20,233 nucleotides of DNA from a virus, in UHGV virus genome UHGV-0876955, one strand, 5' to 3'. The stretch's first letter is position 1. Each line of letters begins with the position of its first letter. The notes below the pieces were generated by a model that did not search any database, was not told where the DNA came from, and was given only the letters and a program-made list of their open reading frames with translations. Position numbers and translations under genes: made by a program. Below, piece after piece: positions 7,929-9,170 of this stretch.

Positions 7929-8867
7929 TCAAAATAACCACAAAGGAAAACACATGACTTTGCCACAAGTAGGGCATGGTGATCCCACTTTAGTACCAAC
8001 CTCTTCTGCTTTGGTCTTAAAATTACGCGCGCGGTTCATTGCATCAGCCTGACTATTTTCTGTAGCTTTGATGCTTGCCCGAATATCAGTTATCGCACCA
8101 CGAACTTTGAGCAACTTGGCGTCATGTTCTTCTTTTGAGGCTAACTTTTTGCGCTCACTTTCGATTGCCTTCTCGGTATCACGTATCTGTTCGGGAAGAG
8201 TGCGGATCTCAAGTTCAACTTCCGTTAACTCAACTTCGGCACTGGCCAGCCCAGCCAGGGCATCGTCATAACGTTTAGAACGCTCTTGCTCCCATGATTC
8301 AGAGGAGGCTTTCGCTGACTCAATTTCTGACTGTGTTGCCTCAATGGTCGAGATTGTCGACTCCAATTTGGTTTTAACCACATCCATACGTGCGGCAGCT
8401 GCATTAGCTCGCTCACGAGCAATAGCGTAGGCGCGTGTCAGTCTGTCAACGCCAGCGGCTTCTTCTACGATGGTTTTGAGGTTTTTGTCGGACATTCCAG
8501 GTAAATCTGGCATAGCTTCTTGGCTCGCATAGATGGAAGCCATGAAAACCTCTTTAGATGCACCGATCAGACGCTCGACGAACTCTTGCGTCAGCGCATC
8601 TTTGCCTTTCGTCATATCGCCGTCTTCACCACGAACGATAAGCCGATCCTGATTAATCCTTTTGTTGAGGGGGGATATCTTCCCAACGTCGGGCCTGGGT
8701 TTATTGCATCCCATGAAACTGAAGATCTTAACATTAATAGCGAAGGGTTCTTTGGGGGAATGGGTGCGCATCACTGTATGGCTTTCACGAACCTTATTCG
8801 ACTTGCCAATAAGCGGGTGGATAGTTTGGCATCGCCAGGTGATGCTTTTACTGGTTTCCTTATCCAA
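7929..8867 (-). CDS. SbcC/Rad50-like fragment (Q-loop region, coiled coil, CPTCG zinc-hook); lacks both ATPase domains, possible gene remnant
   Basis: Minus-strand translation IVRGEDGDMTKGKDALTQEFVERLIGASKEVFMASIYASQEAM, then ~190 aa of E/K/A-rich coiled coil, then GSPCPTCGK. Homologous part is roughly 7929-8642; the frame opens only at 8897 and no Walker A is encoded upstream in any minus frame. Confidence 0.4.
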   Translation of the reverse strand: MDKETSKSITWRCQTIHPLIGKSNKVRESHTVMRTHSPKEPFAINVKIFSFMGCNKPRPDVGKISPLNKRINQDRLIVRGEDGDMTKGKDALTQEFVERLIGASKEVFMASIYASQEAMPDLPGMSDKNLKTIVEEAAGVDRLTRAYAIARERANAAAARMDVVKTKLESTISTIEATQSEIESAKASSESWEQERSKRYDDALAGLASAEVELTEVELEIRTLPEQIRDTEKAIESERKKLASKEEHDAKLLKVRGAITDIRASIKATENSQADAMNRARNFKTKAEEVGTKVGSPCPTCGKVMCFPLWLF

Positions 8868-9170
8868 AGGAGGGATAAAAAGTACAGTGCGGACAAACTA
8901 CAGTTTGTTGGTAAGTATGGAGAAATGGTAGAAATCGAACTTCAGCTCCCTCATGTTTTAGCAAACGATAGTGCAGACAGTCGGAGGCTGTTGGGCATCA
9001 TGCGTCATTTCATAGCAAGTGGTGTTAAACATGCCGCAGATAAACGTGTCACGCAGGAAAATGAGTATTCAGACTTTGCAAACTATCCCCAACCAACGTT
9101 GCAAACGGCAATAGTAGCCAATTCGTTGGAGGCGAGATTATTGGAAAACCCTATATGGGGAACATGGTAA
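8760..9170 (+). CDS. Hypothetical protein, start uncertain (track ORF 8520-9170)
   Basis: The 8900-9170 part is the only long ORF on either strand and ends 9 nt before the RuvC-like gene SD; the 5' part overlaps the antisense SbcC-like frame, so I chose the internal ATG at 8760. Confidence 0.35.
   Translation: MGAHHCMAFTNLIRLANKRVDSLASPGDAFTGFLIQRRDKKYSADKLQFVGKYGEMVEIELQLPHVLANDSADSRRLLGIMRHFIASGVKHAADKRVTQENEYSDFANYPQPTLQTAIVANSLEARLLENPIWGTW

What the first reader, a model, noticed from the sequence alone, without database searches (positions are those of the whole stretch)
7929..8897. SbcC/Rad50-like internal fragment lying antisense to an orphan copy of the conserved start element
The minus strand encodes a Q-loop-like segment (FMASIYASQEAM), a long coiled coil and a CPTCG hook, but no Walker A upstream (all three minus frames checked to 9180) and no C-terminal ABC domain downstream. 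Its last residues (VMCFPLWLF) are simply the reverse complement of the conserved plus-strand element ccacaaaggaaaacacATG at 7938-7956, which here heads only a 33-codon ORF. A promoter-like motif (7825-7843) also precedes it. This looks like a rearrangement or gene-decay breakpoint.
Basis: partly seen in the sequence, partly recalled or inferred. Interest (0 to 1): 0.5.

Follow-up and report, generated by a model that had tools for sequence, protein, structure and literature searches.

The report
Inverted SbcC gene scar in phage-plasmid
This is a dead, flipped 690-base piece of a phage-plasmid's Rad50-like repair gene, left by a deletion-inversion-deletion that wiped out the sbcD-sbcC nuclease genes; it is an ordinary gene-decay scar with unusually clean junctions.

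Summary

- **Source.** The window comes from an E. coli SSU5-like phage-plasmid. Its closest relatives are pS2-S1K81-2, pECOH89 and phage Cyrano.
- **Normal gene order.** Every relative examined has repA | ASCH-like | sbcD | sbcC | a 247-aa gene (phrog_2117) | RuvC-like | nrdA.
- **What the window has instead.** Only the sbcD upstream region and its first 4 codons remain (to 7965). Next comes sbcC codons 105-335 in inverted orientation (7958-8647), 100% identical to relatives. The parental order resumes inside codon 72 of the 247-aa gene (from 8642).
- **What was lost.** 1616 bp and 1118 bp were deleted.
- **Junctions.** The two junctions carry 8-bp (CTTTGCCA) and 6-bp (GCCGAT) microhomologies. 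The joint chance of this is about 1.6e-7.
- **The "orphan start element".** It is simply the native sbcD ribosome-binding site and ATG.
- **The 312-codon minus-strand ORF.** It is a chimera of antisense read-through, the SbcC fragment and the antisense RBS.
- **How widespread.** The arrangement is private. It is absent from 453 plasmid records, 243 E. coli genomes, 6 phage records and three contig collections.
- **Most likely origin.** Two microhomology-primed template switches during replication, leaving a non-functional scar. An in-vitro or assembly artefact cannot be excluded without reads.
- **Verdict.** Low novelty.

The parts
7701..7953 (+). Retained intergenic region upstream of sbcD. 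It includes the repeated near-palindromic motif (7823-7842) and the ribosome-binding / start element (7938-7953).
   Evidence: Collinear with the ASCH-sbcD spacer of Cyrano, pECOH89 and pS2. The motif is repeated at 19305, 4315(-) and 9757, and degenerately at 2361. The only difference from pS2 is A5->A4 at 7947.
7954..7965 (+). First four codons of sbcD (ATG ACT TTG CCA). This is all that remains of the 361-aa Mre11-like nuclease gene.
   Evidence: The left-flank alignment ends at 7965, which corresponds to sbcD nt 12. No SbcD tblastn hit occurs anywhere in the window.
7954..8052 (+). Chimeric 33-codon ORF (MTLPQVGHGDPTLVPTSSALVLKLRARFIASA*). The sbcD start is fused to antisense sbcC sequence.
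   Evidence: The peptide has no PHROG hit and is not on record in the protein collection.
7958..7965 (.). Junction A: the 8-bp microhomology CTTTGCCA, shared by sbcD nt 5-12 and the reverse complement of sbcC nt 996-1003.
   Evidence: Three-way alignment. For random junctions in this DNA, P(>=8 bp) = 1.05e-4.
7958..8647 (-). Inverted internal fragment of sbcC (nt 314-1003, codons 105-335). It carries the Q-loop (YASQEA, 8514-8531), the N-terminal coiled-coil arm and the CPTC zinc hook (7965-7976).
   Evidence: 100% identity over 690 nt to pECOH89 and pS2 on the opposite strand. phrog_77 E=1.8e-42. Motif coordinates.
8642..8647 (.). Junction B: the 6-bp microhomology GCCGAT, shared by the reverse complement of sbcC nt 314-319 and codons 72-74 of the 247-aa gene.
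   Evidence: Three-way alignment with pECOH89. For random junctions, P(>=6 bp) = 1.5e-3.
8643..9170 (+). 3' remnant of the 247-aa phrog_2117 gene (residues 73-247 plus stop), which has lost its start and first 71-72 codons.
   Evidence: tblastn gives 100% identity for residues 73-247. The full-length relative matches phrog_2117 at E=2e-127.
8648..8867 (-). Spurious N-terminal extension of the 312-codon minus ORF. It is antisense read-through of the phrog_2117 remnant and is not SbcC sequence.
   Evidence: The SbcC match starts at ORF residue ~72-75. The region is collinear with the plus-strand gene in relatives. There is no Shine-Dalgarno sequence before the TTG at 8867.

Best explanation
**What is shown.** The region is a non-functional scar of the phage-plasmid's sbcD-sbcC (Mre11/Rad50-like) nuclease operon.

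- The parental arrangement was P/RBS-sbcD-sbcC-gene247.
- The window's arrangement is [..sbcD codon 4] + reverse complement of [sbcC codons 105-335] + [gene247 codon 72..].
- 1616 bp and 1118 bp are lost.
- The joints carry 8-bp and 6-bp microhomologies.

**What is inferred.** The most economical route is one replication event with two microhomology-primed template switches.

1. A nascent strand ending in CTTTGCCA, just inside sbcD, disengaged.
2. It re-annealed 2.3 kb ahead to TGGCAAAG on the opposite-strand template.
3. It copied 690 nt backwards until its end read GCCGAT.
4. It disengaged again and re-annealed 1.8 kb further on to the original template inside gene247, then continued.

**Consequences (inferred).**

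- SbcD, SbcC and the 247-aa protein are lost.
- The sbcD promoter and RBS now drive a 32-aa junk peptide and antisense transcription across the fragment into the RuvC-like and nrdAB genes, which keep their own ribosome-binding sites.
- The SbcC fragment has no promoter, no RBS, no ATPase lobes and no nuclease partner, so it does nothing.
- Plasmid maintenance is unaffected. Lytic-cycle recombination and end processing is probably impaired.

**On the confidence figure.** The 0.6 applies to the inferred one-step, in-vivo double template switch. That the region is a deletion-inversion-deletion scar of sbcDC is near certain (about 0.97).
For: **Structure.**
- Collinearity breaks at exactly two points against Cyrano, pECOH89, pS2 and 12 further loci.
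- Three-way junction alignments show the 8-bp and 6-bp overlaps.

**Not chance.**
- Simulated random junctions in the same DNA give P(>=8 bp) = 1.05e-4 and P(>=6 bp) = 1.5e-3.

**Recent event.**
- The inverted segment is 100% identical to relatives.
- The surrounding 10.6 kb differs from pS2 at only three other positions.

**The window is the derived state.**
- Intact sbcDC is present at >=80% coverage in 230 of 239 E. coli complete genomes carrying the family.
- It is also intact in Salmonella SSU5 and in Klebsiella relatives.

**No site-specific machinery.**
- No flanking inverted repeats occur at the segment ends.

**Precedent in the literature.**
- E. coli rearrangement junctions with 4-15 bp microhomology over kilobase distances are attributed to template switching. 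Inverted switches need a second switch to restore the strand (PMC1428787).
- The MMBIR model covers complex events that mix deletions and inversions (PMC2621351).

**No expression signals for the fragment.**
- No sigma-70-like site lies on either strand of 7600-9300.
- No Shine-Dalgarno sequence precedes the candidate starts.

**The locus is dispensable for plasmid carriage.**
- pEco_M21170_105 has an independent IS91-linked deletion running from sbcD nt 99 into nrdB.
Against: - **No reads or source record.** I could not show that the arrangement exists in vivo at full frequency.
- **Possible data-quality problem.** The window carries several private 1-nt indels at short base runs, listed below. 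These could mean an error-prone assembly.
  - A5->A4 twice, in the identical 11-mer, at 4014 and 7947.
  - A7->A6 at 18424.
  - +1 C at 15092.
- **Similar in-vitro signature.** phi29/MDA chimeras have the same signature: inverted sequence with intervening deletions, primed on 2-21 nt (PMC1855051).
- **Other routes fit the sequence equally well.** Sequence alone cannot separate a one-step double switch from inversion followed by slipped-strand deletion, or from end joining of several breaks.
- **Landing sites lie ahead of the departure points.** They are 2.3 and 1.8 kb ahead, which is not the simplest within-fork geometry.
- **Unremarkable substrate.** 114 inverted 8-mer pairs occur in the 3.7-kb parental region against ~105 expected, so nothing singles out these sites.
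Confidence: 0.6

Rival explanations
1. Two separate in-vivo events. First, an inversion formed between the 8-bp inverted repeats CTTTGCCA / TGGCAAAG, flipping sbcD nt 13 to sbcC nt 1003. Second, a 2734-bp slipped-strand deletion occurred between the two GCCGAT copies, which the inversion had turned into direct repeats.
For: The final sequence is exactly what this path predicts. In the inverted intermediate, the GCCGAT copies would be direct repeats 2734 bp apart, the sum of the two deletions (coordinates). Deletion between short direct repeats is a classical replication-slippage outcome in E. coli (own knowledge; context in PMC1428787).
Against: It needs two rare events in a lineage that has otherwise hardly diverged from pS2 (3 other differences in 10.6 kb). 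A reciprocal inversion on only 8 bp needs two joints. No intermediate was seen among 453 plasmid records or 243 E. coli genomes.
Confidence: 0.12
2. An in-vitro or assembly artefact. The inverted block would come from a polymerase chimera made during amplification (MDA or PCR), or from a long-read misassembly. It would not be part of the plasmid in the cell.
For: More than 85% of MDA chimeras are inverted sequences with intervening deletions, primed on 2-21 nt of complementarity (PMC1855051). The arrangement is unique to this window; neither junction nor any chimeric ORF occurs in any collection searched. Private homopolymer indels, including the same A5->A4 change in two copies of one 11-mer, hint at sequencing error in the source.
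Against: A chimera normally has one joint per molecule. Here two joints restore the original strand and continue collinearly for more than 11 kb, and the arrangement made it into a consensus sequence. k-mer or overlap assemblers do not join sequences on 6-8 bp. Ligation or in-silico chimeras would not show microhomology at both joints (joint P about 1.6e-7).
Confidence: 0.15
3. Break-and-rejoin. Several double-strand breaks occurred in the sbcD-sbcC-gene247 region, for example during lytic replication or nuclease attack. Repair by microhomology-mediated (alternative) end joining re-inserted the middle fragment backwards.
For: Microhomology at both joints also fits end joining after resection. 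E. coli has a ligase-A-dependent alternative end-joining activity (own knowledge).
Against: It requires four breaks, loss of two fragments and recapture of one. That is less parsimonious than two template switches. Alternative end joining in E. coli is inefficient and typically gives simple deletions (own knowledge). Nothing in the sequence marks break sites.
Confidence: 0.08
4. A programmed or functional feature: either an invertible DNA switch, or a new gene encoding a free Rad50 hook/coiled-coil protein or an antisense RNA.
For: The orientation differs from relatives. The minus-strand reading frame stays open for 312 codons. The native sbcD promoter region would transcribe the fragment antisense.
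Against: - There are no inverted repeats or recombinase sites at the segment ends.
- The inversion is coupled to 2.7 kb of deletion, so it cannot flip back to a working state.
- It is found in no other record.
- No promoter-like site or Shine-Dalgarno sequence serves the minus ORF.
- The ORF's head and tail are antisense read-through.
- There is no Rfam match.
- No intact sbcC is left for an antisense RNA to target.
Confidence: 0.02

Closest known systems
SbcC / Rad50 / T4 gp46 family of SMC-like ATPases (PHROG phrog_77; Pfam AAA_23, SMC_N, SbcC_Walker_B), partnered with the SbcD / Mre11 / gp47 nuclease
   Same: The fragment is homologous to the family's Q-loop, N-terminal coiled-coil arm and CxxC zinc hook. 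The intact parental gene has Walker A, the signature motif, Walker B and an adjacent metallophosphoesterase gene.
   Different: Only codons 105-335 of 638 remain. Both ATPase lobes are missing, as is the SbcD partner. The fragment lies inverted with respect to its promoter. It is a pseudogene fragment, not a family member in any functional sense.
Microhomology-mediated template-switch rearrangements: long-distance template switching in E. coli (Slack et al. 2006, PMC1428787) and FoSTeS/MMBIR (Hastings et al. 2009, PMC2621351)
   Same: Non-recurrent breakpoints, 6-8 bp junction microhomology (reported range 4-15 bp), kilobase jumps, and a complex product mixing deletion and inversion in which a second switch restores the strand.
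   Different: This is a single natural allele inferred from comparison, not a selected amplification. There is no copy-number gain and no templated insertion. A replicative origin was not demonstrated.
phi29 / MDA chimeras (Lasken & Stockwell 2007, PMC1855051)
   Same: Inverted sequence with intervening deletion, and priming on short complementarity (2-21 nt).
   Different: Those are single-joint artefacts in individual amplified molecules. Here there are two joints that return to the original strand, within a consensus sequence that is otherwise collinear over 20 kb.
Site-specific invertible segments (Hin/Gin/Cin-type switches, shufflons)
   Same: A DNA block whose orientation differs between related genomes.
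   Different: There are no flanking inverted recombination sites and no adjacent invertase use. The change is irreversible because it is coupled to deletions. It occurs in only one sequence.
Other sbcDC-region lesions in the same plasmid family: the IS91-linked deletion in pEco_M21170_105 (NZ_CP133922.1) and the IS91 pairs bracketing sbcDC in pA98_p4 (CP142588.1)
   Same: Independent structural damage at the same locus in plasmids that are still maintained.
   Different: Those lesions are mediated by insertion sequences. The window's event involves no mobile element, only microhomology.

Membership tests
SbcC/Rad50 ATPase (functional member) | N-terminal Walker A / P-loop | tested here: not met
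   The parental GSGKST lies at residues 43-48. The window retains only residues ~104-337. The minus-strand sequence upstream of 8647 is antisense to the phrog_2117 gene.
SbcC/Rad50 ATPase (functional member) | Q-loop glutamine after the first ATPase lobe | tested here: met
   YASQEA lies at 8514-8531. In the full-length relative it aligns with the FLPQGEI region of T. maritima Rad50, 3qf7.
SbcC/Rad50 ATPase (functional member) | Antiparallel coiled coil with a CxxC zinc hook at its apex | tested here: inconclusive
   The CPTC hook (7965-7976) and the N-terminal arm are present. The returning C-terminal arm (residues 336 to about 500) is deleted, so an antiparallel coiled coil cannot form.
SbcC/Rad50 ATPase (functional member) | C-terminal signature motif, Walker B, D-loop and H-loop | tested here: not met
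   Parental LSGGE (548-552), LFIGDE (578-583) and IISH (612-615) have no counterpart in the window.
SbcC/Rad50 ATPase (functional member) | Adjacent SbcD/Mre11 metallophosphoesterase partner gene | tested here: not met
   Only 4 codons of sbcD remain. No tblastn hit of SbcD occurs in the window.
Microhomology-mediated template-switch rearrangement (FoSTeS/MMBIR-like) | Short microhomology at every novel junction | tested here: met
   8 bp at junction A and 6 bp at junction B. Chance probabilities are 1.05e-4 and 1.5e-3.
Microhomology-mediated template-switch rearrangement (FoSTeS/MMBIR-like) | Complex product with at least two joints and a change of strand, with no long homology and no site-specific sites | tested here: met
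   A deletion-inversion-deletion with two joints. There are no flanking repeats beyond the microhomologies.
Microhomology-mediated template-switch rearrangement (FoSTeS/MMBIR-like) | Extra point mutations clustered near breakpoints (error-prone synthesis) | tested here: inconclusive
   One private change, A5->A4 at 7947, lies 11 nt from junction A. The identical change occurs in the same 11-mer at 4014, so a context-specific cause such as sequencing error is equally likely. There are no changes in the inverted block or in the next 5.4 kb.
Microhomology-mediated template-switch rearrangement (FoSTeS/MMBIR-like) | Arises during DNA replication in the cell | not testable with these tools
   This needs reads from the source isolate or experimental reconstruction.
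Site-specific invertible segment | Inverted repeat recombination sites at both ends, with both orientations found in nature | tested here: not met
   The segment ends (CTTTGCCA.. and ..GCCGAT) are not inverted repeats of each other. All other records have one orientation and an intact gene.

The most novel reading that the evidence does not exclude
The private lesions may all be real. They are sbcD, sbcC and phrog_2117 destroyed by one complex template-switch event, plus frameshifts in thyX (15092) and a 269-aa gene (18424). The plasmid replication module and most other genes stay 98-100% identical to inducible relatives such as Cyrano. In that case the element is a phage-plasmid caught at the very start of domestication into a plain plasmid, shedding lytic-cycle DNA-metabolism genes first. 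It would also be a clean natural example in bacteria of a two-switch FoSTeS/MMBIR-type event that removed a nuclease complex acting on DNA hairpins and ends.
Probability: 0.2. Interest if true: 0.4.

Novelty: new member of a known kind. Interest (0 to 1): 0.22.

Why it matters
**Annotation.**
- The 312-codon minus-strand ORF should not be called as a gene or as an 'SbcC-like protein'.
- The 216-codon plus ORF is a 5'-truncated phrog_2117 gene.
- The element should be flagged as lacking its Mre11/Rad50-like nuclease.

**Biology.**
- This is a tidy, base-resolved natural example of a microhomology-mediated deletion-inversion-deletion in a bacterial extrachromosomal element.
- Together with independent IS91 lesions at the same locus, it shows that the sbcDC module, conserved in about 96% of E. 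coli members, is dispensable for plasmid carriage.
- If the isolate were available, it would be a ready-made natural knockout for testing what the phage SbcCD does in the SSU5-type lytic cycle.

It does not open a new kind of system.

Tried and rejected
1. **Pfam on the 312-aa ORF.** It gave only sub-threshold coiled-coil noise (YwqH-like, Tropomyosin), because the Pfam Rad50/SbcC models cover the ATPase lobes. PHROGs and direct DNA comparison settled the identity instead.

2. **Looking for the same arrangement elsewhere.**
   - Junction A 32-mer and junction B 30-mer: 0 hits in genome contigs, viral contigs and metagenome contigs.
   - No place covering >=80% of the query in 453 plasmid, 243 E. 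coli or 6 phage records.
   - Exact look-ups of eight start variants of the chimeric ORFs and of the 32-aa peptide: not on record.
   - The RecA-intein protein of the window is also not on record, so the source could not be identified.

3. **The 136-aa and 130-aa C-terminal pieces of the 247-aa gene.** These are on record. I followed them up hoping for the same scar. They turned out to be unrelated null alleles (a G6->G7 frameshift, and stops at codons 65 and 69) next to intact sbcDC. This sample was ascertained for truncation, so it says nothing about frequency.

4. **The 214-aa protein encoded just upstream (7056-7700).** All 24 contigs read that encode this exact ASCH-like protein show the canonical neighbours.

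5. **Invertible-switch idea.** Rejected: no terminal inverted repeats, and the event is irreversible and unique.

6. **Structured RNA.** No Rfam match at E<=1 in 7600-9300.

7. **Sigma-70 promoter at 7825-7843.** Not supported by the consensus scan. The motif is instead a repeated palindromic element.

8. **Predisposing substrate.** Inverted 8-mers in the parental region occur at chance density (114 against about 105 expected), so the sites are not special.

9. **A 2026 preprint on phage-plasmid heteroresistance.** It could not be opened.
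Full report
**Where the window comes from**

DNA searches place the window in the SSU5-like phage-plasmid family of E. coli.
- Matches include Escherichia phage Cyrano (pLF82), PhiR41_1 and Salmonella phage SSU5.
- Hundreds of ~110-kb, non-mobilizable 'rep_cluster_488' plasmids also match.
- Apart from the finding, the 20-kb window is collinear with these plasmids at about 98.4% identity.
- The closest relative found is pS2-S1K81-2 (NZ_CP107145.1).
- From about window 3400 to 14060, the window differs from pS2 at only three other positions besides the rearrangement.
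- Cyrano is an SSU5-like phage-plasmid kept at about 5.5 copies per cell, and it produces virions (PMC9928086).

**Checking the observation**

- Its residues 72-304 match phrog_77, 'SbcC-like subunit of palindrome specific endonuclease', at E=1.8e-42 on internal profile positions only.
- Pfam gave just sub-threshold coiled-coil hits for the fragment. The full-length relative hits AAA_23, SMC_N and SbcC_Walker_B.
- The full-length relative also aligns with Thermotoga Rad50 structures. In that alignment YASQEAM sits at the Q-loop.
- tblastn of every pS2 protein against the window finds only SbcC residues 104-337, and nothing of SbcD.
- The tail VMCFPLWLF is the reverse complement of the plus-strand element at 7938-7956. 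That element heads a 33-codon ORF.
- The element recurs at 2399 and 4005, with 0 matches expected by chance.
- The consensus scan finds no sigma-70-like promoter at 7825-7843. The sequence there is a real repeated near-palindrome, ATAGGTA-N6-TACYTAT, also found in other intergenic spacers.

**What is really there**

In Cyrano, pECOH89, pS2 and every other locus fetched, the order is:

repA(-) | ASCH-like 214 aa | sbcD 361 aa | sbcC 638 aa | 247-aa gene (phrog_2117) | RuvC-like 189 aa | nrdA | nrdB, all on one strand after repA.

Local BLAST of the window against these loci gives three blocks.

| Window block | Corresponds to |
|---|---|
| up to 7965 | parental sequence up to sbcD nt 12 |
| 7958-8647 | sbcC nt 314-1003 (codons 105-335), opposite strand, 100% identical |
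| 8642 onward | collinear again, starting inside codon 72 of the 247-aa gene |

- The blocks overlap by 8 bp (CTTTGCCA) and 6 bp (GCCGAT). These bases are present in both parental partners at each joint.
- The deleted stretches are 1616 bp and 1118 bp.
- The 'orphan' start element is therefore the native sbcD ribosome-binding site, ATG and four codons.
- The 312-codon ORF is a three-part chimera:
  - antisense of the 247-aa gene (8648-8867);
  - the SbcC fragment (7958-8647);
  - antisense of the sbcD RBS (7929-7957).
- The plus-strand ORF 8520-9170 contains the true 3' remnant of the 247-aa gene from 8643, at 100% identity.

**Is it more than chance?**

- Simulating random joints of this type in the parental DNA gives P(>=8 bp) = 1.05e-4 and P(>=6 bp) = 1.5e-3. 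Both joints were therefore microhomology-mediated.
- The sites themselves are unremarkable. Inverted 8-mers occur at chance density in the 3.7-kb parental region (114 against about 105 expected).

**How widespread is it?**

- No record covers >=80% of 7400-9300 in one place, among 453 plasmid records, 243 E. coli complete genomes and 6 phage records.
- Both junction strings are absent from the genome, viral and metagenome contig collections.
- No chimeric ORF is on record among about 15 billion proteins.
- sbcDC is kept at >=80% coverage in 230 of 239 E. coli genomes that carry the family.
- Independent lesions do exist at this locus:
  - an IS91-linked deletion from sbcD nt 99 into nrdB in pEco_M21170_105;
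  - IS91 pairs bracketing sbcDC in pA98_p4.
- The arrangement is thus private, recent and derived, and the locus is dispensable for plasmid carriage.

**Most likely mechanism (inferred)**

The product [left] + rc[middle] + [right], with microhomology at both joints and two flanking deletions, is what two successive template switches of one nascent 3' end would produce.
1. The first switch goes from sbcD nt 12 to the opposite-strand template, at the complement of sbcC nt 996-1003.
2. The strand then copies backwards for 690 nt.
3. The second switch returns to the original template inside the 247-aa gene.

Work in E. coli attributes junctions with 4-15 bp of identity over kilobase distances to template switching of 3' ends. 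That work also notes that an inverted switch needs a second switch to give a viable product (PMC1428787). The MMBIR model generalises this to complex events that mix deletions and inversions (PMC2621351).

Alternatives that give the same sequence:
- inversion on the 8-bp inverted repeat, followed by slippage between the now-direct GCCGAT copies 2734 bp apart;
- multi-break end joining.

These cannot be separated by sequence alone.

**Functional consequences (inferred)**

- The fragment lacks both ATPase lobes, the returning coiled-coil arm and its SbcD partner.
- It has no promoter-like site and no Shine-Dalgarno sequence, so it is inert.
- The sbcD upstream region now drives a 32-aa junk peptide and antisense transcription toward the RuvC-like and nrdAB genes. 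The RuvC-like gene keeps its own ribosome-binding site (taaggagactatATG at 9168-9182).
- By analogy with the roles of T4 gp46/47 and other phage Mre11-Rad50 complexes (own knowledge), recombination and end processing in the lytic cycle is probably compromised.

**Caveat on data quality**

Relative to its nearest relatives, the window has several private 1-nt indels at short base runs.

| Position | Change | Effect |
|---|---|---|
| 4014 | A5->A4 | in the element GGAAAAACACA |
| 7947 | A5->A4 | in the same 11-mer |
| 15092 | +1 C | splits the 367-aa thymidylate synthase gene |
| 18424 | A7->A6 | frameshifts a 269-aa gene |
| 18224 | single-base deletion | not assessed |
| 20027 | C3->C2 | not assessed |

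Supporting calls are 52, 55, 56 and 62.

- All 12 or more relatives checked have A5 at both of the first two sites.
- The same change in the same 11-mer twice looks like a context-specific sequencing error. That would mean the source assembly is not perfectly polished.
- A 6-8 bp microhomology joint is not a plausible assembler error.
- phi29-type amplification does make inverted-with-deletion chimeras primed on 2-21 nt (PMC1855051). Without reads, I therefore keep an artefact at about 15%.

**Comparison with known things, and novelty**

- The gene family (SbcC/Rad50/gp46) is well known. The fragment fails the family's defining features as a functional member: Walker A, signature motif, Walker B and a nuclease partner.
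- The mutational class (microhomology-mediated complex rearrangement) is also well known.
- Only the particular allele is new. I found no record of it in any collection searched.
The finding is ordinary, and its main value is for annotation and as a natural sbcDC knockout.

Noticed in passing
window 4014 and 7947: Both copies of the start element GGAAAAACACATG have A4 in the window, while all 12 or more relatives examined have A5 at both sites. The same -1 change in the same 11-mer twice suggests a context-specific sequencing error, or else parallel mutation that shortens the SD-ATG spacing.
   Followed up: partly
window 14502-15606 (frameshift at ~15092): The 367-aa thymidylate synthase gene of relatives (called ThyX in the Cyrano record) is split into 205-aa and 166-aa ORFs by a private +1 C. 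The best plasmid matches have 1160 nt against 1161 nt in the window.
   Followed up: partly
window 18344-19152 (frameshift at ~18424): A 269-aa hypothetical gene of pS2 is frameshifted by A7->A6, leaving a 218-aa ORF. Further private single-base indels occur at 18224 and 20027.
   Followed up: partly
window 193-2322 (gene runs off the left end): The RecA-like gene carries an in-frame ~1.2-kb intein with a LAGLIDADG homing-endonuclease domain (Pfam RecA, Intein_splicing, LAGLIDADG_3). pS2 has an intein-less 357-aa RecA. tblastn also shows a frame change in the N-terminal region, near 88-97.
   Followed up: partly
window 7823-7842, 19305-19324, 4315-4334(-), 9757-9778, degenerate copy 2361-2382: A near-palindromic motif, ATAGGTA-N6-TACCTAT, recurs only in intergenic spacers ahead of the DNA-metabolism gene blocks (0 matches expected by chance). 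It is a candidate operator or non-sigma-70 promoter element of the phage-plasmid.
   Followed up: partly
window 5103-5640 and 6751-6856: Fifteen ~20-nt iterons (consensus ..ACCGCTGRCAGCATAC) flank the Rep3/RepB-type repA gene (5640-6854, minus strand). This is the plasmid origin, about 1.1 kb from junction A.
   Followed up: no
L003, L005-L013 (gene equivalent to window 8643-9170); G-tract at window 8668-8673: The 247-aa phrog_2117 gene is inactivated in several independent ways in other assemblies: G6->G7 in a poly-G tract (stop at codon 97), and nonsense alleles at codons 65 and 69. The poly-G tract lies about 21 nt right of junction B. This sample was ascertained by looking up the truncated product, so it gives no frequency.
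   Followed up: partly
L015 (NZ_CP133922.1, pEco_M21170_105) and L021 (CP142588.1, pA98_p4): These are independent IS91-family lesions at the same locus. One is a deletion from sbcD nt 99 into nrdB. The other is tandem 1.7-kb IS91-family copies inserted on both sides of sbcD-sbcC-gene247, resembling a composite transposon.
   Followed up: partly
window 16018-16494: A 158-aa dihydrofolate reductase (Pfam DHFR_1) is 97.5% identical to the protein annotated in pS2 as trimethoprim-resistant DfrA51.
   Followed up: no
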